A stretch of 64,000 bases of DNA from Candidatus Poribacteria bacterium (GCA_965214095.1 OZ243938.1:1554197-1618196), one strand, 5' to 3'; positions 10,596-57,190 are shown, counted from the stretch's first letter. The notes: a model not told the origin generated them from the letters alone. A program made the numbers and translations.

Positions 10596-10607
10596 AAGGA
10601 GTGTCTT

Positions 10608-24200: not shown

Positions 24201-25752
<1,552 letters not shown>

Positions 25753-31089: not shown

Positions 31090-31227
31090 ACATTCCTTAT
31101 CAATTCATTTATAGCATAGCATAACAATACCGGTTGGATTACACAACTCTATCAGTCAATTTCACATTACATATCGTAGTGCGAAGTTACCGAACCTCGC
31201 AAGCCATAAAACAATAAAGGAGAATTG

Positions 31228-33222: not shown

Positions 33223-33316
33223 CATTCCTCGTCAATTCTCTTGGTCAAATTCGCAATTCATCTCAACGTGCAAGATTAACGAATCTCGCCATTTATTAGA
33301 GTAAGGAGACATCATT

Positions 33317-35326: not shown

Positions 35327-35344
35327 AATACAAGGAGATGTTTT

Positions 35345-37354: not shown

Positions 37355-37449
37355 ATATGCCTTGTCATTTCTCTTGGTCAATTTCTTGAACAACTTAATT
37401 TGTAACATTAACGACTCTCGCCATTTATAAGTGTAAAGGAGACATCATT

Positions 37450-39642: not shown

Positions 39643-39774
39643 AGCCATTCATGTCAATTCACCGATAGTATATCGGCTGCTGCTGGCATAGTGAACTCAC
39701 CCAACCAACTTCGTAATAAGCATGCTAGACACTTAAACCTCAAACACTTTTTGGCAACAACAGGAGGCACTTTT

Positions 39775-41811
39775 ATGGAAAACAGACAACCTTTAACTCC
39801 CGTACTGCGACCACTTAACGACACTGATGTAACAACTTGGGAACTCTCCGAAGGTGCAATTGCCCGATTCGGACACGGATTGAGACTTGACGTAGAATTC
39901 TCACCCGATGCCGCATATCTTTCCGTAGCAACAAAAATTGGATTCTGGCTATATGATACGGATACCCTTGCACCTCGCGCATTGTGGGGTACCGAACGCG
40001 GCATGATGAATGTCGCCACCTTCTCGCATGATTCACGTTGGATTGCCACTGGTGACCAAGACGGGATTCTCAAGGTGTGGGATACACAAAACGGACAGTG
40101 CGTTGCAAAAACTGACTGGGGAGGTACTGAGGAACGCAATGTCATCCTTCATGCCCACTTTTCACTGGACGATCAATATCTCGCTGCTTCCGGTTTTGGA
40201 CATAGTGCTGTCTATACCTGGAATAGAGAACTCAACGCACCTATCAGGAATTTTAAACTTGAAAAGCCAAAATTAGCGGATTATAGAAAAGAAGGTACTT
40301 CTTATGACAGATATTTTCCCATCGCTTTTTCACCCAACAGTAATCTATTCGCTTATGTGTCTTCACCGGAAGCAGTAACGGTTTCAGATATAAACACAAG
40401 TGAAGAGATAGCACACCTCACGGGACACACTACCCCATTACATACCCTCCTGTTTTCACCCTGTGGACAACACCTTGCGAGTGCAAGTCGTGGCACTGCA
40501 GTTCAAGTATGGGATATTCATAATGAATCTCTTGTTATGGCACCCAAAACATATCAAGGTGAAAGAGTAAGACTTGCGTACACACCAGATGAGACATTAC
40601 GTGTTGCAGACATTTATAATGACAAAGTGGTAATGTGGGATGCTTCACAGCACAAAAAGTTGGATACCTTCAACACTATTGGGAATACAGACAGTAAGGC
40701 AAGGTTTTCAAACGATGGAACAAAATTCGCAATTACATGCAGGAACCGCAAAATCCAAATATGGCATGAAGATGATTCTACTACAAAATCGTTCTTTTCT
40801 GGATATGGAAGTATTCCTTATTCGGTGGCATTTATGCAGGATAACAAAACATTGATCGGTGGGAACTGGGGAGGTACTGGTAAGTTATTTTGGGATATAA
40901 ATAGACGGGAAGTCCAGCGGATACTGCCACCAGAGAAACGCAGTTCTTCCAGAGGATGCATGACGTTGTCTCCAGATGATCAACTCTTGGCTATTGATAC
41001 AGGAGACAATGATATACACGTCTGGCATGTTGAAACTGATGAATTAGTTGCAGAACTAACAGGACATGAAAATCGGATTTATTCGTTGACGTTTTCTCCT
41101 ACCGGTAAATACCTTGTCAGTGGAGGATGGAAAGACGAATTATACGTTTGGGATGTCGCGCGCTGGGAAAAACATCACACACTTATAGGACATACAAGTT
41201 CAATTGAGGCAATTGCATTCCATCCTGATGGAAAACGGTTCGTTACCTCCTCCAGGGATGGAACAGCCTTGCTATGGAATGTTGAAACCGGAGAACAAAT
41301 CTCACCACTTCCTTTACCTGAAACCTTAGAGGATGTCTCTCTATACAGGGGTGAACCAGACGAAATTGAACGAGTTATCAATGGTGGGAATCTTCAATAT
41401 AAGAAATATCAACACATGCAATCTATTGTTTTTTCGCCTTGTGGCAACTGGATTGCTGGTGGACTCGGCACATGGATCGCTGATGCGTTAATAAATGAAA
41501 TCCGATTGTGGGACACAGAAACGTTAGAAACACGCATGATATTCCTTCAACCTCATGGATGTATTCGTCCGTGGGCATTAGCATTTTCTCCGTGTGGAAA
41601 GTATCTCGCATCAGGTGCTTGGTGGAAATGGGGATTAGACAAAGCACCTATCCACTTGTGGGAAATGACGACTGGCGAAAATATCCATACTTTCTGGGGA
41701 CACGCATCGGATGTTCAAGATGTAGCCTTTTCACCAGATGGAAAATATTTGGCAAGTGGCAGTTATGATGGCACTGTCCTATTGTGGGCTATGGAACCAT
41801 TTCTTGATTAG
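39775..41811 (+). CDS. WD40 repeat protein, array member W7.
   Basis: AGGAGG lies 7 nt before the ATG (MENRQPLTPVLRPLNDTDVTTWELSEGAIARFGHG). C-terminus VLLWAMEPFLD. Confidence 0.8.
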   Translation: MENRQPLTPVLRPLNDTDVTTWELSEGAIARFGHGLRLDVEFSPDAAYLSVATKIGFWLYDTDTLAPRALWGTERGMMNVATFSHDSRWIATGDQDGILKVWDTQNGQCVAKTDWGGTEERNVILHAHFSLDDQYLAASGFGHSAVYTWNRELNAPIRNFKLEKPKLADYRKEGTSYDRYFPIAFSPNSNLFAYVSSPEAVTVSDINTSEEIAHLTGHTTPLHTLLFSPCGQHLASASRGTAVQVWDIHNESLVMAPKTYQGERVRLAYTPDETLRVADIYNDKVVMWDASQHKKLDTFNTIGNTDSKARFSNDGTKFAITCRNRKIQIWHEDDSTTKSFFSGYGSIPYSVAFMQDNKTLIGGNWGGTGKLFWDINRREVQRILPPEKRSSSRGCMTLSPDDQLLAIDTGDNDIHVWHVETDELVAELTGHENRIYSLTFSPTGKYLVSGGWKDELYVWDVARWEKHHTLIGHTSSIEAIAFHPDGKRFVTSSRDGTALLWNVETGEQISPLPLPETLEDVSLYRGEPDEIERVINGGNLQYKKYQHMQSIVFSPCGNWIAGGLGTWIADALINEIRLWDTETLETRMIFLQPHGCIRPWALAFSPCGKYLASGAWWKWGLDKAPIHLWEMTTGENIHTFWGHASDVQDVAFSPDGKYLASGSYDGTVLLWAMEPFLD

Positions 41812-41887
41812 CATATATATGCATCAGATTGAACTAAAGTATTCTTTAGTGTCCAAACAAGCTGTAGCAATTGCTGAGGAGATTATT

Positions 41888-43879
41888 ATGTATCATAATC
41901 AAATCTATAATACGAATCAAATGAAGTCTGATAATACAGATGTAACAACATGGGAACTCCCCGATGGCGCAATCGCCCGATTAGGACGGGGTTGGGTGCG
42001 CCGAGATATAGCATTTTCACCTAAAGGGGTGTGTCTAGCTATTGCGACAGACATCGGTTGTTGGTTATATGACCTTGATACGATGGTGCCACGTGTGTTG
42101 TGGGATACAGAACGGGGGATGGTTTCTGCCATCTCCTTTTCACACGATGCACGATGGATTGCTACCGGAAACACCGATGGCACCTTGAAGATATGGTCCA
42201 CAGAAACTCTCCAATACATCATAGAAATTGAAACCGGAAAACCTGTTTTCCAACTTAGCTTTTCACCAGATGGACAGTACTTAGCATGTGTCAGTAAAAT
42301 GTCTACGGGAAGTTGTCGAACAAGTATTTATATTTGGCGTGAAAACACCGGCACACCGATCATAGATTTCTCTTTTACATCTAAGCCAGGCGGGCATAAT
42401 TCATACGCAACAGCTTTTTCACATAATGGTGAACTATTTGCATATACGTCTGATTATAATATCATATCTGTAATAAATGTAGAGACGAATGAATGTATCG
42501 CTCAACTTCCGGAAGTATCCACTGAACAACGGTCCGCTGTTGGTCCTCAACTCATTTTTTCTCACTGCGGGAAGTATCTTTCTGGCTACATTCGAAAAAA
42601 TAGGATCTACGTTTGGGATCTCTTCTGCGGTACAATGGAAAAATCGATGGAATATAATAAAATCAATAGGTTGATCCCGACCTTCACATCTGATAGTACT
42701 TTGCGGGTAGCATGTATCTCTGACAACGAGGTGGTCATCTCAAACGCAGCTCAGCAGGAGAAAGTGGATACCTTTGAAATTTGGGGACCGTCTGAAGTAT
42801 CAGCTTGTTTCTCAGCAGATGGATCAAGATTTATTATTTCGAATAGACGCGGCGACCTTTACATGTGGACAGAAACCTCTTCTCCATCTGTAAATATTCT
42901 CACTGGACATTTGCCAGGGGTTAGACAGGTAGGTTTTTCTAAAGATAGCAGAACACTAGTGAGTAATTACGATTATCGAGCTGGATGTCGGTTATGGAAT
43001 GTTGAGAGTAAACGGGTCGGATTGACCTTTCTTTTTCAATATTCGGATCGTAATTCACCCGGTAAGATGGTTATCTCCCAAGGTCAGGAATTCTTCGCTA
43101 CTACTAACGGAAACGGTATTAATATTTGGGATATAGCATCTGGCACACAAATATCAGAACTTACCGTAAAGCCTACAAGTGTACGCAATATGGCTTTTTC
43201 ACTAACTGGGGAATATCTCATAGGAAACCACAGAGGAGGAGTTACAGTATGGAATACGATGCAATGGGAAAAGTGCTATACTCTGAGTATTGAACAAATT
43301 GATCTCCGTAAAGCTCGGTTGCTGTTTCATCCAAACGGTGAGTTTTTTATAATTATTCCGCGTGAAGGGGATAATCTTATTTGGGATCTCAAGAGTGGTG
43401 ATCAAGTTGGCACACTATCCACAGCAATGTGCTCAGATATCACCCTATTTAGAGGTCTAAAAACGGACATCCAGAGAGCTCCTAAACAGCAAACACACCC
43501 TCGACGTGTATGGGGATTTGAGGCATCCCCTCGTGGCACACTTCTCGCTGGGGGAATGTGGGATGAAATTAGAATTTGGGACGCTGCTACCTTAGAAACG
43601 CGTATGGTCATAATTCCACCTGAAGGATGTCAAAAGCAGCATACGCTTGCATTTTCCCCTTGTAGCCGCTACCTTGCCTCCGGTACATGGTGGCAAAGGG
43701 GTCAGAAGAAGGTATCCATCCGGTTATGGGAGGTAGCTACAGGTGAGAATATACATACTTTCTGGGGACACCCTACTGATGTGCAGTGTCTCGCTTTCTC
43801 ACCGGATGGCAGGATTTTGGCAAGTGGTAGTTTTGATGGCACCATCCTCCTCTGGGATATGAAACCATTTATAAATTAA
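41888..43879 (+). CDS. WD40 repeat protein, array member W8.
   Basis: The start is set by the conserved leader GTAGCAATTGCTGAGGAGATTATT-ATG (MYHNQIYNTNQMKSDNTDVTTWELPDGAIARLGRG). C-terminus ILLWDMKPFIN. Confidence 0.8.
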   Translation: MYHNQIYNTNQMKSDNTDVTTWELPDGAIARLGRGWVRRDIAFSPKGVCLAIATDIGCWLYDLDTMVPRVLWDTERGMVSAISFSHDARWIATGNTDGTLKIWSTETLQYIIEIETGKPVFQLSFSPDGQYLACVSKMSTGSCRTSIYIWRENTGTPIIDFSFTSKPGGHNSYATAFSHNGELFAYTSDYNIISVINVETNECIAQLPEVSTEQRSAVGPQLIFSHCGKYLSGYIRKNRIYVWDLFCGTMEKSMEYNKINRLIPTFTSDSTLRVACISDNEVVISNAAQQEKVDTFEIWGPSEVSACFSADGSRFIISNRRGDLYMWTETSSPSVNILTGHLPGVRQVGFSKDSRTLVSNYDYRAGCRLWNVESKRVGLTFLFQYSDRNSPGKMVISQGQEFFATTNGNGINIWDIASGTQISELTVKPTSVRNMAFSLTGEYLIGNHRGGVTVWNTMQWEKCYTLSIEQIDLRKARLLFHPNGEFFIIIPREGDNLIWDLKSGDQVGTLSTAMCSDITLFRGLKTDIQRAPKQQTHPRRVWGFEASPRGTLLAGGMWDEIRIWDAATLETRMVIIPPEGCQKQHTLAFSPCSRYLASGTWWQRGQKKVSIRLWEVATGENIHTFWGHPTDVQCLAFSPDGRILASGSFDGTILLWDMKPFIN

Positions 43880-44017
43880 CGACTTGTGCTAAAAAACTAA
43901 ATGTTAAGTATTGATTCACACATTCAGGTCCTTTTGTCCGTATTTCTTTCACTTAAGATGCTCTTTAGTCCCGTATGAAGATAAAAAACAAATAGGGTAA
44001 TTTGACTTCAAAGTCCA

Positions 44018-44100
44018 GCGCGCTTACAAAGCGCGCCTACGGGTTTGACAAGCGCGCAAGCAAAGCACGCCTACAGGTCTTGGGTTAATTAAGATTAACC
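44018..44100. promoter_or_regulatory. Structured segment of the 400-bp W8-W9 spacer: a GCGCGC-TTACAAA-GCGCGC hairpin, a second GCGCGC copy, and the perfect AT-rich hairpin GGTTAAT-TAAG-ATTAACC.
   Basis: The inverted repeats are at 44018-44036 and 44083-44100. This is the only long intergenic gap inside the WD40 array, and the conserved leader begins right after it. Confidence 0.3.
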
Positions 44101-44282
44101 GTTTAATAAATTAATCTTCATTAGGGACGATATGCTTATAGTGTTAATGCTATTAAATGTAAAAACCAACAAGACAGAATGTTAACTGGCACAAGTCGTA
44201 AATTAGCATATATGTGCATCAGATTGAACTAAAATATTCTTTAGTGTCCAAACAAGCCGTAGCAATTGCTGAGGAGATTATT

Positions 44283-46364
44283 ATGCATCATAATCAAAAC
44301 TATAATACGAATCAAATGAAGTCTGATAATACAGATGTGACAACTTGGAAACTTCCTGAAGGTGCGATCGGCAGATTAGCCAGAGGACGCGTGTCAGATA
44401 TGTCCTTTTCAACTGATGGTAAATATCTTGCCGTCGCAACCCCCATCGGCTGTTGGTTGTATGATAGATTGTCGCTGAAACCACTTGACTTGTTTGAAAC
44501 AGAAAGTGGAATGCTTAATACCATTGTCTTTTCACGCGATACCCGGTTGATTGCCACCAGTAATTTTGATGGCGTAGTGAAGGTATGGGACGTACAAACG
44601 CTAAAGTGTCTCGCAAAGATAAACCATCGCAAGAATATAGATGCAACTTCAGGATATTCTTGGAACCTCCATTTTTCTTGGGACAACGCATACTTAGCAG
44701 CATCTTGTTTTGACAAACAAAATGTTGTCTACGCGTGGCACAAAAACACTGATGAACCTATCACGATATTTCCGATTGACGTAGCAGAAGAGAGCGGACA
44801 CCATTTTCCTATCTGTTTTTCTCCGATAGGGAACTTACTTGCATACGTATCTGCTGGAACACCGCATCACACTCTCACCATTTCCGATATAGAGACCAGT
44901 GAACACATCACACATCTCAACTGCATAGCACCATTGGTATACCGAGGTCTTGTCTTTTCTCCTTGTGGGCAATATATAGCTGCTGCTAATCAGAACAATG
45001 AAGTCTTGGTGTGGAATGTTTACAACGACACTTTGGAAATGGAACCCACTACTTATGATGGGAGGAGGTTAATCCCTGCCTATACACCCGATGGCACACT
45101 ACGCGTTGCCGATATTTACGACTATAAAGTTGTAATATGGGATGCTATCCGAAAAGAAAAAATAGATACATTTGACCGTCAGAACCCCAGACATGATCAT
45201 TTTTTAAGCGGACATCAGGAACATTTTTCAAGCGATGGCTCGTATGTCGCAACGATCCTCTCACGTAGCAATCTTTGTGTGTGGACAGTCGGGTCACCAT
45301 CAACCAAAGTTTCAAGTCCTGCTGATCATAAACCTGTTGCACATTCGGTTGCTTTTTCTAAAAACGGAAAGACATTAGCAAGTGGACATGGGTTTGGTAT
45401 GTATCACGTATTCTGGGATGCTGCACAAAGACAAACAGAACAAATATTCCCAATGCCAAATATCCAAGCACAACGTACAACTCTAACTAAAGACCTAACA
45501 GAAGAAGAGAAACAGCAGTGGTACCGTGTCAGTGCTTTGTCGCCTTGTGGAGAACGACTGACACTTCGCGACCTTCCGAGGGGGTCAGTTGAAATTTGGG
45601 ATATTGCGTCTGAAACCCTCATTACAGAACTATCGGACAGTAACAGATTTAGATCTTGGCGTGAAATGCGTTTTTCACCTACAGGTGAACATTTTATCGG
45701 CATAACAGCTACAGGTGATATTGATGTCTGGGATACACAGTCCGGTGAGAAAGTCAATACACTCGCAGGAGATAACCGACTGATTTTGACAACTGCGTTT
45801 CACCCTGATGGTAAACAACTCGCTGCAGCACTAACAGAGAGTGCTGGAATGCTTTGGGATATTGACAGCGGTGAACAACTCGGAGTTTTCCCCACAGAAC
45901 TACCAGAAGATACCTCCCTCTATAGAGGCGATCCAGAGCAGATACACCAATATATTCAAAAATATAAAAAAAGAAGTGGCTATAAGTGCATCCCTTACAA
46001 ACTCGTCTTCTCTCCTTGTGGCACGACGATCGCCTGTGGGATAAAAGATCATATCCAGTTGCGAGACACAGATACCTTAGAAACACAGATGCTCATACTG
46101 CTACCAAAAACGTGCACCAAACCGTTTGCGCTTACATTTTCCCCCTGCGGAAAATACCTCGTCTCTGGGTCGTGGTGGATAAAGGGATTGGACAAAGTAT
46201 CCATAAGAATATGGGAAGTCGCAACGGGTCAAAATATACACACATTCTGGGGACATACAACAGATGTGCAGGATTTAGCATTTTCACCGGATGGCAAATA
46301 TCTCGCAAGTGGCAGTTATGATGGCACCATCCTGTTCTGGGATATGAAACCATTCATCAATTAG
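44283..46364 (+). CDS. WD40 repeat protein, array member W9.
   Basis: Its leader and first ~60 nt are nearly identical to W8's (MHHNQNYNTNQMKSDNTDVTTWKLPEGAIGRLARG). Its 3' ~475 bp is nearly identical to the 3' end of W11. Confidence 0.8.
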   Translation: MHHNQNYNTNQMKSDNTDVTTWKLPEGAIGRLARGRVSDMSFSTDGKYLAVATPIGCWLYDRLSLKPLDLFETESGMLNTIVFSRDTRLIATSNFDGVVKVWDVQTLKCLAKINHRKNIDATSGYSWNLHFSWDNAYLAASCFDKQNVVYAWHKNTDEPITIFPIDVAEESGHHFPICFSPIGNLLAYVSAGTPHHTLTISDIETSEHITHLNCIAPLVYRGLVFSPCGQYIAAANQNNEVLVWNVYNDTLEMEPTTYDGRRLIPAYTPDGTLRVADIYDYKVVIWDAIRKEKIDTFDRQNPRHDHFLSGHQEHFSSDGSYVATILSRSNLCVWTVGSPSTKVSSPADHKPVAHSVAFSKNGKTLASGHGFGMYHVFWDAAQRQTEQIFPMPNIQAQRTTLTKDLTEEEKQQWYRVSALSPCGERLTLRDLPRGSVEIWDIASETLITELSDSNRFRSWREMRFSPTGEHFIGITATGDIDVWDTQSGEKVNTLAGDNRLILTTAFHPDGKQLAAALTESAGMLWDIDSGEQLGVFPTELPEDTSLYRGDPEQIHQYIQKYKKRSGYKCIPYKLVFSPCGTTIACGIKDHIQLRDTDTLETQMLILLPKTCTKPFALTFSPCGKYLVSGSWWIKGLDKVSIRIWEVATGQNIHTFWGHTTDVQDLAFSPDGKYLASGSYDGTILFWDMKPFIN

Positions 46365-46418
46365 TTTATGTGCGTCATGTTGATCTAAACAACTGTAGCA
46401 ATCGCTGAGGAGATTATT

Positions 46419-48404: not shown

Positions 48405-48503
48405 ATATTTCTCGTAAATTCTCTTGGTCAATTTCATATAATACCTTGACGCACGAGGTTATTGAATACTGAACGTCTATTAGTAATAAAAGGAGACATC
48501 TTC

Positions 48504-50567
48504 TTGGAAAAGAGAATACATACAACCCCCTCATTTAGACCTATTGACGACACAGATGTAACAACTTGGAAACTACCTGAAGGTGCAATCGGCAGATTGG
48601 CACGTGGACGGGTGTCAGATATGTCCTTTTCAGTTGATGGTAAATATCTTGCTGTCGCAACCCCTATCGGTTGTTGGTTGTATGATCGATCATCCCTGAA
48701 ACCACTCGACTTGTTCGAAACAGAATGCGGTATGCTTGATTCCATTGTCTTTTCACACGACACCCAATTCATTGCTACAAGTAATAAAGATGGTGTTCTA
48801 AAGATATGGGATACACAAACGCTAAAGTGCCTCGCAAAGATAAACCATCGCAAGAATGTAGATGCAACTTCAGGATATTTTTGGAACCTCCATTTTTCTC
48901 GGGACAACGCATACTTAGCAGCATCTTGTTTTGACAAACAAAATGTTGTCTACGCGTGGCACAAAAACACTGATGAACCTGCGATTTACTTCCCAATTGA
49001 CTTAGAAAAAGAAAGTGGACACGACTTTCCTATCTGTTTCTCTCCGATAGGGAATCTACTTGCATACGTGTCTGCTGGAACCCCGCAGAACACTCTCACC
49101 ATTTCCGATATAGAGACTAATGAACACATCACACATCTCAACTGTATAGCACCATTGGTATACCGAGGTCTTGTCTTTTCTCCTTGTGGACAATATATAG
49201 CTGCTATCAATCTGAACAATGAGATGTTGGTGTGGAATGTTCACAACGGCACTTTGGAAACGGAACCCACTACTTATAATGGGAGGAGGTTAATCCCTGC
49301 CTATACACCCGATGGCACACTACGCGTTGCCGATATTTACGACTATAAAGTTGTAATATGGGATGCTATCCGAAAAGAAATAATGGATACCTTTAAATGT
49401 CAGAACCGCTGGCATGATCATTTTTCATCCGATGGTGCACACATCGCAACGATCCTCTCGCGCAGCGATCTCTGTGTGTGGACAGTCGGGTCACCGTCAA
49501 CAAAAGTTACAAGTCCTGCTGATCATAAACCTGTTCCATATTCGGTTGTTTTTTTTAAAAAAGGTAAAACATTAACAAGTCCAGAAATGTTTGGTGCACA
49601 GCTCGTTTGTTGGAATGTTGCACAGAGGCAAACAGAACAGATTTTCCCAACGCTGAGGATGCAGGCACAGTACACGACTCAAACTAAAAATCTCACAACG
49701 GAAGAAAGACAGGATTTGTTCCGAGTCAGCACATTGTCTCCTTGTGGAAAACGACTAGCACTTTGCAAACTTCCGAGGGGTTCAATTGAAATCTGGGACA
49801 TTACGTCTGAAACACTCATTATAAAACTCTCGGACAGTAGAGGATTTGACGCCGCAATGTGTTTTTCACCTTCTAATAAACATCTCATCGGCACAGCACC
49901 TACGGGCGGTACAGGAGACATCGGTGTATGGGATACACAGTCTGGGAAGAAAGTTAATATGCTCACAGGACATACGAATTATATTTTAACAGTAGCTTTC
50001 CATCCAAGCGGTAAACGACTCGCAACCGTCGCCAAGGATAGAACAGCAAGGCTCTGGGATATTGACAGCGGTGAACAACTCGGAGTTTTCCCCACAGAAC
50101 TACCAGAAGATACCTCCCTCTATAGAGGCGATCCAGAGCAGATACACCAATATATTCAAAAATATAAAAAAAGAAGTGGCTATAAGTGCATCCCTTATAA
50201 ACTCGTCTTCTCTCCTTGTGGCACAACGATCGCCTGTGGGATAAAAGATCATATCCAGTTGCGAGACACAGATACCTTAGAGACACAGATGCTCATACTG
50301 CTACCAAAAACGTGCACCAAACCGTTTGCGCTTACATTTTCCCCCTGCGGAAAATACCTCGTCTCTGGGTCGTGGTGGATAAAGGGATTGGACAAAGTAT
50401 CCATAAGAATATGGGAAGTCGCAACGGGTCAAAATATACACACATTCTGGGGACATACAACAGATGTACAGGATTTAGCATTTTCACCGGATGGCAAATA
50501 TCTCGCAAGTAGCAGTTATGATGGCACCATACTCCTCTGGGATATGAAACCTATTATATGCACCTAA
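48504..50567 (+). CDS. WD40 repeat protein, array member W11.
   Basis: The start is a TTG 8 nt after AGGAG (MEKRIHTTPSFRPIDDTDVTTWKLPEGAIGRLARG). It is a close paralog of W9 and W14. Confidence 0.75.
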   Translation: MEKRIHTTPSFRPIDDTDVTTWKLPEGAIGRLARGRVSDMSFSVDGKYLAVATPIGCWLYDRSSLKPLDLFETECGMLDSIVFSHDTQFIATSNKDGVLKIWDTQTLKCLAKINHRKNVDATSGYFWNLHFSRDNAYLAASCFDKQNVVYAWHKNTDEPAIYFPIDLEKESGHDFPICFSPIGNLLAYVSAGTPQNTLTISDIETNEHITHLNCIAPLVYRGLVFSPCGQYIAAINLNNEMLVWNVHNGTLETEPTTYNGRRLIPAYTPDGTLRVADIYDYKVVIWDAIRKEIMDTFKCQNRWHDHFSSDGAHIATILSRSDLCVWTVGSPSTKVTSPADHKPVPYSVVFFKKGKTLTSPEMFGAQLVCWNVAQRQTEQIFPTLRMQAQYTTQTKNLTTEERQDLFRVSTLSPCGKRLALCKLPRGSIEIWDITSETLIIKLSDSRGFDAAMCFSPSNKHLIGTAPTGGTGDIGVWDTQSGKKVNMLTGHTNYILTVAFHPSGKRLATVAKDRTARLWDIDSGEQLGVFPTELPEDTSLYRGDPEQIHQYIQKYKKRSGYKCIPYKLVFSPCGTTIACGIKDHIQLRDTDTLETQMLILLPKTCTKPFALTFSPCGKYLVSGSWWIKGLDKVSIRIWEVATGQNIHTFWGHTTDVQDLAFSPDGKYLASSSYDGTILLWDMKPIICT

Positions 50568-50599
50568 AACAACTGATAAAAAATAACTTGGAGGTTTCC

Positions 50600-52804
50600 A
50601 TGGATAATCAACGATCACAAACACCCACACAAATACCCCAAACAAACGCAGATATTACCACTTGGTCTCTCCCTGAGGGTGCAATTGCACGTTTAGGGCG
50701 CGGTCGTAACCGTGGTGGTCTAACATTTTCACCTGATGGTGATTCTCTTGTTGTTGCGACAGACATCGGGTGTTGGTTGTATGACCTTGATACGCTGACG
50801 CCGAGTGCGTTATGGGCAACAGAACGGGGGATGGTTTCTGCCATCTCCTTTTCTCATAATGGGAAGTGGATTGCTACCACCAACTGGGACGGCATCGTGA
50901 AGATATGGGACACACAAACCTTACGCTGCATTTCCCAAATAGAACCACCTTGGCATCCTAATACATATGTAGATTTTTCATCAGATGGGCAGCACTTAGC
51001 TCTGGTTGGTAGTACACAAACTTCTGCATGGACAGCTGTTTACGACTGGCACTTGAACACAACTACGCCTATCATAAACTTAGATTTTACGCTGAAACCA
51101 CAGGTATACTCTGCAGTCTCAACAGCTTTTTCCATTAATGGTAATTTATTTGCGTATACGTCCGACTACAATATGACATCTGTGATGCACATGGAGACAG
51201 GGGAGATCATAGCGAAATTTACTGACACATATACCGATGACACATATACCAAAGGTCCTATTTTAGGGACCACCAACTTAGTTTTTTCACCTTGTGGAGA
51301 GTTCCTTGCGGGTTGTAATAAAAAGGACACGGTTCATGTATGGAATATCCAAAGCGGGAACTTTACGATGGAACCGACAACTTATCATCAGAGCACTCGG
51401 GTACTGCCGACCTACCTATCTGATGGCACATTACGGGTTGCTGCGCGTCATCCAAAAGAAATAATCATCTGGGATACGAAGTCGCAGGAGAAGGTGGACT
51501 CCATTGCATATTCGGGAGGGATCTTCTGGGCAACGTGCTTTTCAGTTGATGGTAGAAAGTTCGCAATCGCCAGTAGATACGATGATCTTAAGCTCTGGTG
51601 TGAAGGTTGTTCCTCAAAAGTCGTATCTCTGACTGAACATCTACATCCGGACCCTGTCCAAAGGTTCCCGAGCACACTGGATTTTTCTAAGGACAGTCGG
51701 ACACTTTTCTGTGGATACTGGAAACACATCGGACACCTTGCTTGGGATGTTTCGAAGCACCAAATAGCACGGACATTTCCGTCACATTCACATGAATATT
51801 CGGCACATCCCGATATGCCTTTCACGATGTCACACAATGCGGAACTGATAGCTACTGCAAACGGCATGGACAGCCCCATTAAAGTTTGGGATATAGCGTC
51901 AAATACGCAAGTTGCAGAGTTCCTCGAATCTTCATGGCAAGTGTGCTGGCTGACTTTTTCTTCAACAGCAGAATATCTTCTGAGTAGCATGAATAGAGAC
52001 GCAGCCAAGGTTTGGGATGTAGAATCTGGCACGCAAGTCGCAGAACTTACTGAGAAGGATAACTTAATGGAGAAAGGGTTCAAGATGAAAATGTTTTCTC
52101 CGACAGATGAATATATACTCGGTATCAGTAAGGATCGTATCAGCGTGTGGGATGCCTTGAAGTGGGAACATCTTTATGAAACTCACCTCAAGGGTTTTAA
52201 CAGGTCAAGGAGAGAGGGAGTATTTAAGTTTGGGACACCGTTGAGGTTTCATCCAGACGGTCAGCATTTCATCACTGCTGGATACGAAAAGGATGCTTTT
52301 GTCTGGGACCTCAAATGCGGTGAACAAGTGGGTTCACTTCACACAGAAAAATGTTTAGATACAACCCTCTATAGAGGTGAGCCACAAGATATCCAGCGTC
52401 TCCGCGAACAACAGAATGCGGACTCTCGACGTATCCGTGGAATTGAAACATCCCCCTGCGGCACTTTTATTGCTGGCGCAATGCATAACGAAATTAGGGT
52501 ATGGGACGCTGCTACCTTACAAACCCAAATAGCAATCATACCATCCATTGGCTGTCAGAAGTCTTATATAATAGTGTTTTCACCTTGCAGCAAGTATCTG
52601 GCAACAGGTGCGTGGTGGCAAGAGGGACAAACAAAAATGTCTATCAGGTTGTGGAATATCATTACAGGTGATAATATTGCCACTTTTTGGGCACACACGA
52701 CTGATGTTGATAAACTTGCGTTTTCACCGGATGGCAAATATCTCGCAAGCGGTAGTTATGATGGTACTATCCTCGTCTGGGATATGAAACCATTTATAAA
52801 TTAG
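50600..52804 (+). CDS. WD40 repeat protein, array member W12.
   Basis: The ATG follows GGAGG (MDNQRSQTPTQIPQTNADITTWSLPEGAIARLGRG). It is a paralog of W13. C-terminus ILVWDMKPFIN. Confidence 0.8.
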   Translation: MDNQRSQTPTQIPQTNADITTWSLPEGAIARLGRGRNRGGLTFSPDGDSLVVATDIGCWLYDLDTLTPSALWATERGMVSAISFSHNGKWIATTNWDGIVKIWDTQTLRCISQIEPPWHPNTYVDFSSDGQHLALVGSTQTSAWTAVYDWHLNTTTPIINLDFTLKPQVYSAVSTAFSINGNLFAYTSDYNMTSVMHMETGEIIAKFTDTYTDDTYTKGPILGTTNLVFSPCGEFLAGCNKKDTVHVWNIQSGNFTMEPTTYHQSTRVLPTYLSDGTLRVAARHPKEIIIWDTKSQEKVDSIAYSGGIFWATCFSVDGRKFAIASRYDDLKLWCEGCSSKVVSLTEHLHPDPVQRFPSTLDFSKDSRTLFCGYWKHIGHLAWDVSKHQIARTFPSHSHEYSAHPDMPFTMSHNAELIATANGMDSPIKVWDIASNTQVAEFLESSWQVCWLTFSSTAEYLLSSMNRDAAKVWDVESGTQVAELTEKDNLMEKGFKMKMFSPTDEYILGISKDRISVWDALKWEHLYETHLKGFNRSRREGVFKFGTPLRFHPDGQHFITAGYEKDAFVWDLKCGEQVGSLHTEKCLDTTLYRGEPQDIQRLREQQNADSRRIRGIETSPCGTFIAGAMHNEIRVWDAATLQTQIAIIPSIGCQKSYIIVFSPCSKYLATGAWWQEGQTKMSIRLWNIITGDNIATFWAHTTDVDKLAFSPDGKYLASGSYDGTILVWDMKPFIN

Positions 52805-52861
52805 TTTATATGTGCGTCATGTTGATACAAACAAGCAGTAGCAATTGTTGAGGAGATTATT

Positions 52862-55048
52862 ATGCAACATAAACAAACCTATAATACGAATCAAATAAAA
52901 TCTGATAATACAGATGTAACAACTTGGCACCTTCCCGATGGAGCAATTGCACGGTTAGGACGAGGTCGTATCCGTGGGGGTCTAACATTTTCACCTGATG
53001 GTAATTCTCTTGTTGTTGCGACAGACATCGGGTGTTGGTTGTATGACCTTGAAACATTAACACCACGGGCATTGTGGAATACAGAACGAGGGATGGTTTC
53101 TGCCATCTCCTTTTCTCATAATGGGAAGTGGATTGCTATCGGAAATATGCACGGCACCGTGAAGGTATGTGACACACAAACCTTACAATCCATTGCAATA
53201 ATAGAAACGAACCGACTTGTTACACGTATTAATATTTCTCCGAGTGGACAGCACTTGGCAATTGCTACAGTAGCTGGTGGCGTTCAAACTACTATTTATG
53301 CTTGTCGTCCTCATATCAGTACACCGATTGCAAACTTTGCTTTAACGCAAGAACAACGGGTAAAATGTACAACATCAATAGCATTTTCGCCTAATGGCTG
53401 CCTATTTGCTTACACGTCTGACATCAATAAAACATCTGTGATATATGTAGAGACAGGAGAAATCATCGCGGAACTTCACGATACGTATACCACGTATACC
53501 GAAGAACCTGGTGGATGTACGAAATTGGTTTTTTCACCGTGTGGTAAGTTCCTTGCGGGGTGTAATAAGAAGGACACGGTTCATGTCTGGGATATCCAAA
53601 GCGGTAACTTCGCAATAGAACCGACAACCTATCATCAGAGCACTCGCGTGCTGCCGACTTATCTATCTGATGGTACCCTAAAGGTTGCAGCGTGTTATCG
53701 CAAAGAGGTAATATTCTGGGATACAAAGTTACAACAGAAGATGGATGCTTTTGAATATATAGGGAGCGAAGGTGGGGCAACGTGCTTTTCAGTTGATGGT
53801 AGAAAGTTCGCAATTGCCAGTAAATACGACGATCTTAAGGTCTGGTGTGAAGGTTCTCCCTCAAAAGTCGTATCTTTACCTGAACATCTACATCCCGACC
53901 CTGTGCAAAGGTTCCCGAATATACTGGATTTTTCTAAAGACAGTCGGACGCTTTTCTGTGGATATTGGAAACACACCGGGTACCTCGCTTGGGATGTTTC
54001 GAAGCACCAAATAGCACGGACATTTCCGTCACATTCACGCGGATATTCGGCACATCCCGAAATGCCTTTCACGATGTCACACAATGCGGAACTGATAGCT
54101 ACAGCAAACGGAACGGACAGTCCCATTAGTGTTTGGAATGTAGTCTCAAACACGCAAGTGGCAGAGTTCCTCAAATCTTCACGGCAAGTGTGCTGGCTAA
54201 CGTTATCTCCAAAAGGAGAATATCTTGTGGGTAGCATGAAGGGAGACGCAGCCAAGGTATGGGATGTAGAATCTGGCACGCAAATCACAGAACTTACAGA
54301 GAAGGATACTTCGTTGACGAAAGGAGTCAGAATGAAGATGTTTTCCCCGACAGGTGAATATATACTCGGTATCGGTAAGGATCGTATCAGCGTGTGGGAT
54401 GCCTTGAAGTGGGAACATCTTTATGAAACTCGCCTCAAAGAGTTTAACCGGTCCAGGAGAGACGGAGTGTTTAAGCTTGGGACACCGTTGAGGTTTCATC
54501 CAGACGGTCAGCATTTCTTCACTGCTGGATACGAAGTGGGTGCTTATGTGTGGGAACTCAAAAACGGTGAACAAGTGGGGACACTACCCACAGAAATATG
54601 CATAGATACAACCCTATATAGAGGAGATCCACAGAACATCCAGCTGGTCCGTAAACAGCAGGAAACGACCCGTCGCGTCCGACAACTTGAGGTATCTCTT
54701 TGCGGTACTATTATTGCTGGCGCAATGCAAAACGAAATTAGGGTATGGGATGCAGCCACACTACAAACAAAAATGGTGATAATACCTCCGAAAGGATGTC
54801 AAAAACCTTTCACCTTAGCCTTTTCACCGTGTAGTCAATATCTTGCTGCTGGCGTATGGTGGCAACACGGACAAATAAGAATGTCTATCCGGGTATGGAA
54901 TATCACTACTGGTGAAAATATTACTACCTTCTGGGCACATCCTACCGATATCGATAGACTTAGGTTTTCACCGGATGGCAAATATCTCGCAAGTGGCAGT
55001 TATGATGGCACCATCCTGCTCTGGGATATGAAACCATTTATAAATTAG
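52862..55048 (+). CDS. WD40 repeat protein, array member W13.
   Basis: It has the conserved leader and MQHKQTYNTNQIKSDNTDVTTWHLPDGAIARLGRG. C-terminus ILLWDMKPFIN. Confidence 0.8.
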   Translation: MQHKQTYNTNQIKSDNTDVTTWHLPDGAIARLGRGRIRGGLTFSPDGNSLVVATDIGCWLYDLETLTPRALWNTERGMVSAISFSHNGKWIAIGNMHGTVKVCDTQTLQSIAIIETNRLVTRINISPSGQHLAIATVAGGVQTTIYACRPHISTPIANFALTQEQRVKCTTSIAFSPNGCLFAYTSDINKTSVIYVETGEIIAELHDTYTTYTEEPGGCTKLVFSPCGKFLAGCNKKDTVHVWDIQSGNFAIEPTTYHQSTRVLPTYLSDGTLKVAACYRKEVIFWDTKLQQKMDAFEYIGSEGGATCFSVDGRKFAIASKYDDLKVWCEGSPSKVVSLPEHLHPDPVQRFPNILDFSKDSRTLFCGYWKHTGYLAWDVSKHQIARTFPSHSRGYSAHPEMPFTMSHNAELIATANGTDSPISVWNVVSNTQVAEFLKSSRQVCWLTLSPKGEYLVGSMKGDAAKVWDVESGTQITELTEKDTSLTKGVRMKMFSPTGEYILGIGKDRISVWDALKWEHLYETRLKEFNRSRRDGVFKLGTPLRFHPDGQHFFTAGYEVGAYVWELKNGEQVGTLPTEICIDTTLYRGDPQNIQLVRKQQETTRRVRQLEVSLCGTIIAGAMQNEIRVWDAATLQTKMVIIPPKGCQKPFTLAFSPCSQYLAAGVWWQHGQIRMSIRVWNITTGENITTFWAHPTDIDRLRFSPDGKYLASGSYDGTILLWDMKPFIN

Positions 55049-55105
55049 TTTATATGTGTGTCATGTTGAGCTAAACAAACTGCAGCAATTGCTGAGGAGA
55101 TTATT

Positions 55106-57190
55106 ATGCATCATATTCAAACCTATAATACGAATCAAATGAAATCTGATAATACAGATGTAACAACATGGGAACTACCTGAAGGTGCAATCGACAGATT
55201 AGCAAGGGGACGGGTGTCGGATATGTCATTTTCAACTGATGGTAAGTATCTTGCCGTCGCAACGCCGATCGGTTGTTGGTTGTATGATAGATTGTCGCTG
55301 AAAACGATCGCGTTATTTGATACAGAAAGTGGAATGCTTAATACCATTGCCTTTTCACCCGACACCCAGTTCATTGCTACCAGTAATAAAGATGGTGTTT
55401 TAAAGGTATGGGATACACAAACGCTAAAGTGTCTTGCAAAGATAAACCATCGCAAGAATGTAGATGCAGCTTCAGGATATTTTTCGAAGCTCTGCTTTTC
55501 TCAAGATAACCAATACTTAGCCGCATCCTGTTTTGATAAACAAAATGTTGTCTACGCATGGCAACAAAACACTGATAAACCTATGATCTGTTTACCGATT
55601 GATGTAGAAGAAACGAAGGGACACAGCTTTCCCATCTGTTTCTCACCTAATGGGTATCTACTCGCGTATGTGTCTTCTGTATCTCTCCAGAACACTGTAA
55701 CGATTTCCGATATTGAAACCGGTGAACACATCACACATCTTAGCCAATCCTCGGCACTGTCTACATACCGTTTTTCCCCTTGCGGACAATATATAGCAGC
55801 TGCTAATCGGAACAATGAAGTGTTGGTATGGAATGTTCACAACGGCACTTTGGAAACGGAACCAACAGCGTATGATGGAAAGTGGTTAAGCATTGCCTAT
55901 ACACCTTATGGCATACTACGCGTTGCCGATATTTACGACTATAAAGTTGTGATTTGGGATGCTATCTCAAAAGAAAAAATAGATACCTTTGAACGCGATA
56001 AACCCAGGTCTGATCATTTTTTAAGCGGACATCATTTACACTTTTCATCCGGTGGCGCACACATCGCAACGATCCTCTCGCGCAGTAAGCTCTGTGTGTG
56101 GACGGTCGGGGCACCATCAAGTAAAGTTTCAAGTCCTGCTGATCATAAACCTGTTGTCCACGCGGTTGCTTTTTCTAAAGACGGAAAGACATTAGCAAGT
56201 AGATATGCGTGGGGTATGTATCACGTATTCTGGGATGCTACACAGCGACAAACAGAACAAATATTCCCAACGCCAAATATCCAAGCACAACGCACAGCTC
56301 TAACTAAAGACCTAACAGAAGAAGAGAAAAAGCAGTGGTACCGTGTCAGTGCCTTGTCACCTTGTAGGGAACGACTGGCACTTCGCGACCTTCCGAGAGG
56401 GTCAGTTGAAATTTGGGATATTGCGTCTGAAACCCTTATTACAGAACTCTCGGACAGTAAGAAATTTAGATCTTGGCGTGAAATGCGTTTTTCACCGACA
56501 GGTGAACGTTTTATCGATACAGCACCGACAGGTGATATTGATGTCTGGGATACACAGTCTGGTGAGAAAGTCAATACACTCGCAGGAGATAACCGACTGA
56601 TTTTGACAACTGCGTTTCACCCTGATGGTAAACAACTCGCTGCTGCACCAAAAGGGAGTGCTGGAATGCTTTGGGATATTGACAGCGGTGAACAACTCGG
56701 AGTGTTCCCTACAGAACTGCCAGAAGATACCTCCCTCTATAGAGGCGATCCAGAGCAGATACACCAATATATTCAAAAATATAAAAAAATAATCAAGCAA
56801 TATAAGTGTATCCCTTACAAACTCGCCTTCTCTCCTTGTGGCACGATGATCGCCTGTGGGATACAAGATCATATCCGGTTGCGAAATACAGCAACCTTAG
56901 AAACGCACATGCTTATACTACCACCCGAAACGTGTAGCAGACCGTTTGCACTCACATTTTCCCCCTGCGGAAAATACCTCGTCTCTGGGTCGTGGTGGAT
57001 AAAGGGGTTGGACAAAGTATCCATAAGAATATGGGAAGTCGCAACGGGTCAAAATATACACACATTCTGGGGACATACAACAGATGTGCAGGATTTAGCA
57101 TTTTCACCGGATGGCAAATATCTCGCAAGTAGCAGTTATGATGGCACCATACTCCTCTGGGATATGAAACCTTTTACCGGTTCAGATTGA
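55106..57190 (+). CDS. WD40 repeat protein, array member W14.
   Basis: It has the conserved leader with the AGCAATTGCT palindrome and MHHIQTYNTNQMKSDNTDVTTWELPEGAIDRLARG. Its 3' ~250 bp is nearly identical to W9 and W11. Confidence 0.8.
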   Translation: MHHIQTYNTNQMKSDNTDVTTWELPEGAIDRLARGRVSDMSFSTDGKYLAVATPIGCWLYDRLSLKTIALFDTESGMLNTIAFSPDTQFIATSNKDGVLKVWDTQTLKCLAKINHRKNVDAASGYFSKLCFSQDNQYLAASCFDKQNVVYAWQQNTDKPMICLPIDVEETKGHSFPICFSPNGYLLAYVSSVSLQNTVTISDIETGEHITHLSQSSALSTYRFSPCGQYIAAANRNNEVLVWNVHNGTLETEPTAYDGKWLSIAYTPYGILRVADIYDYKVVIWDAISKEKIDTFERDKPRSDHFLSGHHLHFSSGGAHIATILSRSKLCVWTVGAPSSKVSSPADHKPVVHAVAFSKDGKTLASRYAWGMYHVFWDATQRQTEQIFPTPNIQAQRTALTKDLTEEEKKQWYRVSALSPCRERLALRDLPRGSVEIWDIASETLITELSDSKKFRSWREMRFSPTGERFIDTAPTGDIDVWDTQSGEKVNTLAGDNRLILTTAFHPDGKQLAAAPKGSAGMLWDIDSGEQLGVFPTELPEDTSLYRGDPEQIHQYIQKYKKIIKQYKCIPYKLAFSPCGTMIACGIQDHIRLRNTATLETHMLILPPETCSRPFALTFSPCGKYLVSGSWWIKGLDKVSIRIWEVATGQNIHTFWGHTTDVQDLAFSPDGKYLASSSYDGTILLWDMKPFTGSD

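What the first reader, a model, noticed from the sequence alone, without database searches (positions are those of the whole stretch)
41811..57170. Conserved 80-bp leaders with an AGCAATTGCT palindrome, and near-identical 3' tracts shared by W9/W11/W14, suggest gene conversion or cassette-style shuffling inside the array
Upstream of W8, W9, W10, W13 and W14 the non-coding leader and the first ~60 coding nucleotides are almost nucleotide-identical: ...CATCAGATTGAACTAAAGTATTCTTTAGTGTCCAAACAAGCYGTAGCAATTGCTGAGGAGATTATT-ATG-YATCATAAYCAAAMCTATAATACGAATCAAATGAARTCTGATAATRCAGATGT. Downstream coding sequence diverges. The leader contains a perfect 10-bp palindrome AGCAATTGCT abutting the SD. It is at 41866-41875, 44251-44260 and 55084-55093, with degenerate copies upstream of W10 and W13. 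It also contains a second hairpin, CTAAAG-TATT-CTTTAG.

Independently, the last ~475 bp of W9 (45855-46330) and of W11 (50055-50530) differ at only about 8 positions, and the last ~250 bp of W14 (about 56920-57165) matches them as well. The central parts of these genes are only moderately similar. Non-coding sequence conserved beyond the protein boundary, together with mosaic identity blocks, is the signature of ongoing intra-array homologous recombination or gene conversion. The palindrome at the RBS is a candidate operator or translational control element common to the family.
Basis: seen in the sequence. Interest (0 to 1): 0.65.

Follow-up and report, generated by a model that had tools for sequence, protein, structure and literature searches.

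The report
Recombining WD40 gene array in Poribacteria
Fourteen tandem WD40-repeat genes in a sponge-symbiont (Poribacteria) genome swap pieces with one another by homologous recombination, especially the short junction piece carrying the ribosome-binding site and the first 22 codons; this is an ordinary evolutionary process, unusually clear here.

Summary
Five genes (W8, W9, W10, W13, W14) share a leader plus first 66 coding nt at 87-95% identity, while their bodies are 43-60% identical. W9 and W11 differ at 5 of 476 nt in their 3' ends. W14 matches them over the last ~200 nt.

The window is a Candidatus Poribacteria chromosome: 16S rRNA, an ECF sigma gene, then 14 intact double-propeller WD40 paralogs.

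Mosaicism is statistically strong:
- Trio runs test: p<1e-4.
- PHI: z=-10.
- dS is 0.05 inside the W9/W11 block and 0.41 outside it.

Related Poribacteria genomes carry the same gene bodies joined to different leader types, and their arrays differ in size and content. The junction module has therefore moved between genes. It lies between the two most conserved stretches of the repeat unit, which hold the longest exact matches (20-54 nt).

Best explanation: RecA-type gene conversion and unequal crossing-over in a birth-and-death tandem family.

The proposed operator or translational-control role of the AGCAATTGCT palindrome is unsupported. Leader RNA folds no better than shuffled sequence, and the palindrome is broken without compensation in 3 of 8 type-A copies. 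It is, however, intact in a diverged leader variant. No recombinase is present.

This is a new member of a known kind, of moderate interest.

The parts
26175..26795 (+). ECF sigma factor gene heading the array
   Evidence: Pfam Sigma70_r2, Sigma70_ECF and Sigma70_r4_2. The same sigma-then-WD40 layout occurs in L004.
26908..57190 (+). Array of 14 intact paralogous WD40 double-propeller genes, W1-W14 (656-734 aa). Stops are at 28983, 31089, 33222, 35326, 37354, 39642, 41811, 43879, 46364, 48404, 50567, 52804, 55048 and 57190.
   Evidence: ORF list, translations, Pfam WD40 and beta-propeller hits. Nucleotide-identity subfamilies are {W9,W11,W14}, {W12,W13}, {W5,W10} and {W3,W4}.
41812..41953 (+). 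W8 type-A long junction module: 76-nt leader plus first 66 coding nt. Hairpin 41834-41849, palindrome 41866-41875, SD GAGGAG 41876-41881, ATG 41888.
44207..44348 (+). W9 type-A long junction module. Imperfect hairpin 44229-44244, palindrome 44261-44270, ATG 44283. It starts right after a relic 'AAATTAG' stop-codon motif.
46231..46484 (+). W9-end / W10-start type-A short junction: conserved last ~130 nt of W9, 54-nt spacer, first 66 nt of W10. Broken palindrome AGCAATCGCT at 46397-46406.
52674..52927 (+). W12-end / W13-start type-A short junction. Broken palindrome AGCAATTGTT at 52840-52849, ATG 52862.
54918..55171 (+). W13-end / W14-start type-A short junction. 12-bp palindrome CAGCAATTGCTG at 55083-55094, ATG 55106.
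45855..46330 (+). W9 3' conversion tract, 98.9% identical to W11 50055-50530.
   Evidence: 5 mismatches in 476 nt with a sharp boundary. dS 0.05 against 0.41 in the body.
50055..50530 (+). W11 copy of the 3' tract.
   Evidence: (families D4, D15). W11 identity to the L001 W9 ortholog jumps from 60% to 98% at this boundary.
56954..57150 (+). W14 copy of the terminal ~200 nt shared with W9 and W11 (2 mismatches to each).
45368..45886 (+). W9 segment closest to W14 (90-97%) and far from W11 (59-78%).
44574..45167 (+). W9 segment closest to W11 (85-98%) rather than W14 (70-90%).
51528..51827 (+). W12 block 92% identical to W13 53775-54074. It is flanked by 59-72% regions.
   Evidence: (family D16).
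43880..44206 (+). Atypical 327-nt W8-W9 spacer with GC-rich imperfect repeats. It is the only long gap in the array.
   Evidence: RNA fold z=-3.5. No homolog in the fetched loci.

Best explanation
The region is the distal half of a 14-gene tandem family of WD40 double-propeller genes. The family lies downstream of an ECF sigma gene in a Candidatus Poribacteria (sponge symbiont) chromosome.

The family evolves by birth and death combined with non-allelic homologous recombination, that is, gene conversion and unequal crossing-over.

The two most conserved stretches of the repeating unit are:
- the last WD blade of one gene (…FSPDGKYLASGSYDGTILLWDMKPFIN*), and
- the DVTTWELPEGAIARLGRG motif of the next gene.

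These stretches hold the longest exact matches between otherwise divergent paralogs (20-54 nt). They can serve as homology arms. The heterologous sequence between them is the spacer with its Shine-Dalgarno site plus about 20 codons of N-terminal tail. This piece is therefore copied from gene to gene as a 'junction module'.

Type A of this module, in long and short forms, now sits on five genes from four body subfamilies. Independent conversion tracts inside the bodies make W9, W11 and W14 a three-way mosaic.

Shown: the mosaic structure, the synonymous-site homogenisation, the leader/body discordance, and the swapping of junction types between orthologous bodies in related genomes.

Inferred: that the enzymology is RecA-type recombination using the conserved arms, and that the near-identity of the leader reflects recent copying rather than function.

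The palindrome and the small hairpin are most likely passengers of the module. A modest cis-function, such as a protein-binding site or an mRNA-stabilising stem-loop, is not excluded.
For: Identity and taxonomy:
- Top protein hits are named Candidatus Poribacteria.
- W14, W10 and the sigma factor match proteins from a 5,206,209-bp NCBI/ENA contig exactly.

Mosaic structure:
- Sliding identity and the nearest-paralog map show W9 alternating between W11-like and W14-like.
- Trio runs test: 179 runs against 298+-10, p<1e-4.
- PHI: observed 1.004 against 1.036+-0.003, z=-10, p<=0.001.

Not protein-level selection:
- W9-W11 3' block dS=0.05, against 0.41 in the body.
- Median pS is 0.72 for other pairs in the same block.
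- The first 21 codons of type-A genes have pS 0.09-0.37, against about 0.7 in the rest.

Discordance: type-A genes are 87-94% identical in nt 0-66 but 43-60% in their bodies. Their body partners (W5, W12, W11) are 43-54% identical in nt 0-66 but 65-97% in the bodies.

Exchange since speciation:
- The L001 W9 ortholog (98-99% body) carries the short, W13-like junction instead of W9's long one.
- The L001 W10-like gene carries a type-C leader.
- The L001 W7 ortholog carries a W11-type start.
- Clustermates of W14 (90% identity or more) start with MRSTVDTDVTTW, not with the type-A tail.
- W9-subfamily proteins across Poribacteria carry at least 5 N-tail types.
- At 46150-46249, W9, W11 and W14 are 99-100% identical to each other but 92% to the ortholog.

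Array content differs between genomes. L002 runs W3 ortholog, a type-A gene, W7 ortholog, then the terminal WD40.

Homology arms:
- Between-subfamily identity peaks at the 5' end (60-69%) and the 3' end (62-74%), against 28-55% in the middle.
- The longest exact match lies within 150 nt of the start or in the last 200 nt in 62 of 85 pairs.

No recombinase, integrase, transposase or reverse transcriptase was found among the ORFs of the window that were scanned against Pfam.

The same mosaic pattern occurs in the neighbouring non-WD40 paralog pair, as expected for a general recombination process.
Against: - Direction and timing of individual events cannot be resolved with one genome per lineage.
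- Alignment of 45-60% identical paralogs is uncertain. PHI can be inflated by rate heterogeneity among saturated sites.
- All sequences are metagenome-derived assemblies.
- The palindrome is perfectly retained in the diverged A' leader of L007/L009, where flanking positions have changed.
- The hairpin there shows two compensatory and two wobble-compatible changes. This hints that part of the leader is under selection and is not merely recently copied.
- No experimental evidence exists for recombination rate, RecA dependence or expression.
Confidence: 0.85

Rival explanations
1. The leader and first codons are kept nearly identical by purifying selection, because they form a cis-regulatory element. 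This could be an operator for a dimeric regulator at the palindrome, or a translational control structure. Recombination would not be needed to explain the conservation.
For: - AGCAATTGCT is perfect in 3 of 5 window copies, in both L001 copies and in the diverged A' leaders of L007/L009, where surrounding bases differ.
- W14 and both L001 copies extend it to the 12-bp CAGCAATTGCTG.
- The upstream hairpin shows 2 compensatory and 2 wobble changes in A'.
Against: - Orthologous bodies carry different leader types in related genomes. Conservation alone cannot produce this.
- The palindrome is broken at three different positions without compensation in W10, W13 and L002.
- The hairpin is absent from three of the five genes.
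- Leader RNA folding gives z-scores of -0.36 to +0.95, and the SD is not sequestered.
- There is no Rfam match.
- Nine of the 14 genes lack the element altogether.
- The covariation rests on one independent lineage (30 of 500 shuffles reach it).
- A 10-bp palindrome in a 60-80-nt AT-rich leader has a chance expectation of several percent (own estimate).
Confidence: 0.12
2. Site-specific cassette shuffling, as in integrons or shufflons. The palindrome or hairpin would be a recombination site at which gene cassettes are excised and inserted.
For: - The conserved element sits at gene boundaries.
- Array order and content differ between genomes.
Against: - No tyrosine or serine recombinase, transposase or reverse transcriptase was found among the window ORFs that were scanned against Pfam.
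- Identity-block boundaries lie inside coding sequence at many different positions, for example 45854/45855 and about +66 of the CDS. They are not at the palindrome.
- Most junctions lack the element.
Confidence: 0.02
3. Assembly or polishing artefact: paralogous reads mis-mapped during consensus building created false identity blocks in a metagenome-assembled genome.
For: - The source is a metagenome-derived chromosome.
- The repeats are long (2 kb units).
Against: - The blocks are 98.9-99% identical, not 100%.
- The same leader types and mosaic relationships recur in independently assembled genomes: L001, L002, and L007/L009.
- All 14 reading frames are intact.
Confidence: 0.02

Closest known systems
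Gene conversion and concerted evolution in bacterial multigene families, for example the Helicobacter pylori babA/babB outer-membrane paralogs with shared 5'/3' ends and exchangeable middles, and tufA/tufB (recalled from general knowledge, not tested here)
   Same: - Non-allelic homologous recombination between paralogs.
- Mosaic identity blocks and homogenised synonymous sites.
- Conserved end segments that act as homology arms.
   Different: - Here there are 14 adjacent, same-strand, intact genes.
- The most mobile piece is the inter-gene junction (3' blade, RBS and N-terminal tail), not the central variable region.
- The host is an uncultured sponge symbiont.
Fungal NWD/HNWD (HET-E/D/R) WD40 genes of Podospora anserina, with concerted evolution of WD repeats (PMC1805685)
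   Same: WD40 beta-propeller paralogs exchange sequence by recombination, which generates repertoire diversity.
   Different: - In the fungal genes the individual WD repeat units are highly similar within and between unlinked genes, and they are shuffled.
- Here no intragenic repeat homogenisation exists. TRF finds no ~126-nt period, and all direct-repeat families have spacing of 2 kb or more.
- Exchange here is between whole-gene registers in one tandem array.
Antigenic-variation cassette systems (Neisseria pilE/pilS, Borrelia vlsE, Anaplasma msp2; general knowledge)
   Same: Segmental gene conversion among clustered paralogs.
   Different: - Those systems have one expression site plus silent, truncated donors.
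- Here every copy is full-length with its own SD and start codon.
ECF sigma factors associated with WD40 domains in Planctomycetes (PMC8567305)
   Same: ECF sigma is linked with WD40 beta-propeller proteins in a PVC-related lineage.
   Different: - That paper describes sigma factors with, or associated with, WD40 repeat domains.
- Here a stand-alone 206-aa sigma precedes 14 separate WD40 genes.
- No functional link was tested.
Eukaryote-like repeat proteins of Poribacteria (PMC3909097)
   Same: That paper reports WD40 (PF00400) domains as highly abundant in poribacterial single-cell genomes.
   Different: On a term search of that paper, it does not mention tandem arrays, leaders or recombination among WD40 genes.

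Membership tests
Gene conversion / concerted evolution among tandem paralogs | Sharp-edged blocks of near-identity within otherwise diverged paralogs | tested here: met
   W9/W11 differ at 5 of 476 nt after a boundary at 45854/5.
Gene conversion / concerted evolution among tandem paralogs | Homogenisation includes synonymous and non-coding sites | tested here: met
   dS is 0.05 in the block and 0.41 in the body. The leader is 87-95% identical.
Gene conversion / concerted evolution among tandem paralogs | Statistically significant phylogenetic incongruence along the sequence | tested here: met
   Runs test p<1e-4. PHI z=-10. Reciprocal identity pattern.
Gene conversion / concerted evolution among tandem paralogs | Paralogs more similar to each other than to orthologs in the tract, or orthologs carrying different tracts | tested here: met
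   At 46150-46249, identity is 99-100% among paralogs and 92% to the ortholog. Leader types are swapped between orthologs.
Gene conversion / concerted evolution among tandem paralogs | Dependence on the homologous recombination machinery (RecA) | not testable with these tools
   Only indirect evidence: exact matches of 20-54 nt are concentrated in the flanking arms.
Antigenic-variation expression-site / silent-cassette system | Silent, truncated or promoter/RBS-less donor cassettes plus a single expression locus | tested here: not met
   All 14 genes are full-length, with an SD and a start codon.
Integron / shufflon site-specific cassette array | Linked site-specific recombinase | tested here: not met
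   No recombinase was found among the window ORFs that were scanned against Pfam.
Integron / shufflon site-specific cassette array | Exchange breakpoints at the conserved recombination site | tested here: not met
   Breakpoints lie within coding sequence at varied positions.
SD-sequestering translational control RNA (thermometer/riboswitch-like) | Stable conserved structure that pairs the SD or start codon | tested here: not met
   Fold z-scores are -0.36 to +0.95. The palindrome gives only a 4-bp stem. No Rfam hit.
Palindromic operator for a dimeric transcription factor | Dyad symmetry conserved across copies and lineages | tested here: inconclusive
   Of the 8 type-A copies in the window, L001 and L002, 5 are perfect and 3 are broken by single uncompensated changes (W10, W13, L002). 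All 3 diverged A' copies in L007/L009 are also perfect.
Palindromic operator for a dimeric transcription factor | Position overlapping a promoter, and a cognate binding protein | not testable with these tools
   The sigma-70 scan shows no excess of sites. The ECF-like TGAAC-N16-GTC motif in the long leader occurs at chance frequency in the window.
Fungal HNWD-type WD-repeat concerted evolution | High nucleotide identity between WD repeat units within a gene | tested here: not met
   No tandem periodicity. No intragenic repeat families.

The most novel reading that the evidence does not exclude
The junction module is the last blade, a spacer carrying a conserved palindrome and stem-loop, and the N-terminal tail. 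In this reading it is a selected, exchangeable control and targeting cassette. By moving between WD40 bodies it would re-assign which paralogs are translated, stabilised or localised under the ECF sigma regulon. The symbiont would thus gain a combinatorial, rapidly re-wirable repertoire of eukaryote-like WD40 proteins for interacting with its sponge host.
Probability: 0.1. Interest if true: 0.65.

Novelty: new member of a known kind. Interest (0 to 1): 0.4.

Why it matters
WD40 and other eukaryote-like repeat proteins are a hallmark of sponge symbionts, but how their repertoires diversify is poorly described.

This locus shows a large tandem WD40 family in Poribacteria. In it, recombination shuffles both body segments and the RBS/N-terminal junction module, and array size and composition differ between related genomes. 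That makes it a tractable example of repertoire turnover in an uncultured symbiont.

It also carries practical warnings. Orthology assignment, start-codon calling and MAG assembly are all unreliable in such arrays. Gene callers disagree on the start of the type-A genes.

The process itself, gene conversion among tandem paralogs, is textbook. The result refines knowledge rather than overturning it.

Tried and rejected
- RNA structure in the leaders. The five leader RNAs fold no better than dinucleotide shuffles.
- Rfam at E<=1 over 26-62 kb gave nothing.
- ECF-type promoter. TGAAC-N16-GTC is present in both long leaders, but the motif occurs 9 times in the window against 9.5 expected. Rejected as evidence.
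- Sigma-70 and terminator scan. There is no excess, and none of the terminator-like hairpins lies in a spacer.
- Metagenome scans for the type-A leader or N-tail. The first found 0 contigs and the second found one spurious hit. The genome scan found only 2 other species-representative genomes with the exact 25-mer.
- Exact look-ups of W14, P0002 and P0006 for encoding contigs returned nothing. The source contig itself could therefore not be fetched, although one search shows it is a 5.2-Mb NCBI/ENA contig.
- Search for mobile-element enzymes in the window found none.
- Intragenic WD-repeat homogenisation (the fungal HNWD model) is absent.
- The W8-W9 spacer as a repeated mobile element: no copies elsewhere in the window or in the fetched loci.
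- A coding role for the long leader. It is an open, in-frame 23-codon extension starting at ATG 41819 in W8 and GTG 44214 in W9, and the L001 gene call uses it. It has no SD, it is interrupted by an in-frame TAA in the short leaders, and the strong SD-ATG downstream is conserved in all copies. Judged unlikely but not excluded.

Full report
**What the locus is**

The window has 43% G+C. Its WD40 proteins find their best matches in proteins named Candidatus Poribacteria. W14, W10 and the sigma factor are exact matches to proteins from a 5,206,209-bp NCBI/ENA contig.

The gene order is:
- 16S rRNA at 24194-25744 and tRNA-Ile at 25865-25938;
- an ECF sigma gene at 26175-26795;
- fourteen same-strand genes of 656-734 aa, W1-W14, at 26908-57190, which match WD40 and beta-propeller Pfam models along most of their length;
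- two paralogous genes of unknown function at 57264-58541 and 58621-59943;
- one more WD40 gene at 59943-61973.

All 14 array genes are intact. Each has a GGAG-type Shine-Dalgarno site 6-9 nt before its start.

By overall nucleotide identity the genes fall into subfamilies: {W9,W11,W14} at 79-87%, {W12,W13} at 79%, {W5,W10} at 69% and {W3,W4} at 66%. Everything else is 46-63%.

**Checking the observation**

The five named genes do share a leader and N-terminal coding block. From the upstream stop codon to codon 22, pairwise identity is 87-95%. Identity then falls to 58-75% over the next 60 nt and to 43-60% in the bodies.

- There are two leader lengths. W8 and W9 have 76 nt. W10, W13 and W14 have 54-57 nt and lack a 19-nt segment, which is the one that carries the CTAAAG-TATT-CTTTAG hairpin.
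- That hairpin is perfect only in W8.
- The second perfect palindrome is at 44261-44270, not 44251-44260.
- The W9/W11 3' tract (45855-46330 against 50055-50530) has 5 mismatches in 476 nt, with dense mismatches immediately upstream of 45855.
- W14 shares the last ~200 nt, with 2 mismatches.

**Is it more than chance or uniform divergence?**

Yes, on four counts.

1. Informative sites in the W9/W11/W14 trio form long alternating runs. There are 179 runs against 298+-10 in 10,000 permutations. The longest single-pattern run is 32 sites, against at most 16 in permutations.
2. A PHI test on 1326 informative sites of the 14-gene codon alignment gives z=-10, p<=0.001.
3. Synonymous divergence is 0.05 in the W9/W11 block and 0.41 in the rest of the same gene pair. 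Other paralog pairs are saturated in that same block (median pS 0.72). Protein-level constraint therefore cannot explain the identity.
4. The first 21 codons of type-A genes have pS 0.09-0.37, against about 0.7 downstream.

The pattern is reciprocal. Type-A genes resemble each other only in nt 0-66. Their true body relatives (W5 for W10, W12 for W13, W11 for W9 and W14) are 43-54% identical there but 65-97% identical afterwards.

**Evidence from related genomes**

I fetched arrays from other Poribacteria assemblies.

In L001, orthologs are 89-99% identical. Even so:
- the W9 ortholog (98-99% over most of its body) carries the short, W13-like junction instead of W9's long leader;
- the W10-like gene carries a type-C leader (…TTGGAGGTTTCCATGGATAATCAACGA…, as on W12);
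- the W7 ortholog starts like W11.

Proteins clustered with W14 at 90% identity or more start with MRSTVDTDVTTW rather than the type-A tail. W9-subfamily proteins across Poribacteria carry at least five different N-terminal tail types.

Array content also differs. L002 goes from a W3 ortholog through one type-A gene to a W7 ortholog and then straight to the terminal WD40 gene. L001 has one divergent gene where the window has W11-W14.

At 46150-46249, W9, W11 and W14 are 99-100% identical to each other but 92% to the L001 ortholog.

These comparisons show that junction modules and body segments have been exchanged since these lineages diverged. They also argue against an assembly artefact, because independent assemblies show the same modules and the blocks are not 100% identical.

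**Mechanism**

Among genes of different subfamilies, nucleotide identity peaks at the 5' end (60-69%) and in the last ~200 nt (62-74%). It is lowest in the middle (28-55%). In 62 of 85 such pairs the longest exact match (up to 54 nt) lies within 150 nt of the start or in the last 200 nt.

The junction consists of the stop codon, the spacer with its SD, and about 20 codons of N-terminal tail. It is thus a heterologous segment bracketed by the two best homology arms of the repeat unit. This is the geometry expected for patch-type gene conversion by the general recombination machinery. That last step is inference.

Three junctions (W9 end to W10, W12 end to W13, W13 end to W14) are conserved as single pieces from about 90-130 nt before the stop through codon 22.

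No recombinase, transposase or reverse transcriptase was found among the ORFs of the 64-kb window that were scanned against Pfam. Breakpoints are scattered within coding sequence rather than sitting at the palindrome. Site-specific cassette exchange is therefore not supported.

The neighbouring non-WD40 paralog pair shows the same block pattern, 55% rising to 98%. This fits a general process.

**The palindrome and hairpin**

Evidence against a function:
- As RNA, the leaders fold no better than shuffled controls (z from -0.36 to +0.95).
- The palindrome yields only a 4-bp stem and does not sequester the SD.
- Rfam finds nothing.
- An ECF-like TGAAC-N16-GTC motif in the long leaders occurs at chance frequency in the window.
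- The palindrome is disrupted by different single substitutions in W10, W13 and the L002 copy, with no compensation.
- Nine of the 14 genes use other leader types.

Evidence for a function comes from a diverged variant (A') in L007/L009. It is 69-75% identical to type A and its N-tail is MQDNQMQSVD.
- It keeps AGCAATTGCT perfectly.
- Its version of the hairpin (TTAGGT-TATT-ACTTAG) differs from CTAAAG-TATT-CTTTAG by two compensatory and two wobble-compatible changes.

This is only one independent lineage, and 30 of 500 shuffles reach the same score. I treat it as a hint of a modest cis-function, not as support for an operator 'common to the family'.

**Comparison with known systems**

The behaviour matches gene conversion and concerted evolution in bacterial multigene families. 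All sequence-level criteria I could test are met.

It is not an expression-site/silent-cassette system, because all copies are intact. It is not an integron or shufflon, because there is no recombinase and the breakpoints are not at a site. It is not the fungal HNWD type of WD-repeat shuffling, because no intragenic repeat homogenisation exists.

WD40 abundance in Poribacteria (PMC3909097) and ECF-WD40 association in Planctomycetes (PMC8567305) are already reported. A term search of the Poribacteria paper and a literature search on WD40 gene conversion in bacteria turned up no description of a recombining tandem WD40 array with exchangeable junction modules.

**Verdict**

- The recombination interpretation is supported.
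- The regulatory interpretation of the palindrome is not supported, though it is not excluded.
- This is a new, clear member of a known kind of process, and interest is moderate.

Noticed in passing
window 24194-25938: A complete 16S rRNA gene (1543 bits) and tRNA-Ile(GAT) lie directly upstream of the ECF sigma gene. No 23S or tRNA-Ala follows, so the rRNA operon appears to be unlinked or split.
   Followed up: partly
window 57264-58541 and 58621-59943: Two adjacent paralogs of unknown function (425 and 440 aa, 65% aa identity, only a sub-threshold TYW3 hit) show the same mosaic pattern as the WD40 genes. Nucleotide identity ranges from 55% to 93-98% in blocks. Orthologs of 423 aa follow the array in L001.
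   Followed up: partly
window 43880-44206: The only long spacer in the array (W8-W9) contains GC-rich imperfect repeats: CAAAGCGCGCCTACGGGT at 44027 and CAAAGCACGCCTACAGGT at 44061. It folds much better than shuffles (z=-3.5). It has no homolog in the window or the fetched loci. It may be a terminator-like element or an insertion relic.
   Followed up: partly
window 31150-31227, 33250-33316, 48430-48503; L008 around 2720-2760 and 4900-4940; L009 around 14590: Type-B leaders carry a GC-rich stem-loop about 30 nt upstream of the SD. It is perfect in some relatives (GCGCGAGGT-taccgg-ACCTCGCGC in L008). In the window it is degenerate (W3 GCGAAGTT-accg-AACCTCGC, W4 GCAAGATT-aacg-AATCTCGC). It may be an intercistronic mRNA element. 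Covariation was not tested.
   Followed up: no
window 41819-41887 and 44214-44282; L001 5482-5550: The long type-A leader is an open, in-frame 23-codon extension (MHQIELKYSLVSKQAVAIAEEII-) that begins with ATG in W8 and GTG in W9. The gene caller used it in L001. Two of the substitutions that break the hairpin or the palindrome (AAG>AAA, ATT>ATA) are synonymous in this frame.
   Followed up: partly
window 41892-41937: The type-A N-terminal tail is an internal 24-nt tandem duplication (ATCATAATCAAATCTATAATACGA x1.9, i.e. HNQIYNT/NQMKSDNT). The diverged A' tail in L007/L009 has a single unit.
   Followed up: partly
window 33397, 35425, 37530, 52942 and similar: The core GCAATTGC of the palindrome recurs about 75-80 nt into many of the genes, as the codons GCA-ATT-GCx of the conserved 'EGAIAR' motif. 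This inflates window-wide counts of the palindrome.
   Followed up: partly
L005 10001-12067, L007 7916-16969, L009 7910-20064: In other Poribacteria genomes, W-family genes or short arrays sit next to a xanthine-dehydrogenase-like Mo-enzyme cluster and IS elements, rather than next to the sigma gene. The window has that Mo-enzyme cluster at 9177-12863, about 14 kb upstream of the array.
   Followed up: no
window 13291-16371: A 1026-aa Type ISP restriction-modification enzyme (Type_ISP_C, N6_Mtase) lies between the Mo-enzyme cluster and the rRNA gene.
   Followed up: no
window 6801-7958 (- strand): A DUF3179 gene appears split into two adjacent ORFs (7650-7958 and 6801-7628). The larger one also has a collagen-repeat hit. 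This may be a frameshift or a pseudogene.
   Followed up: no
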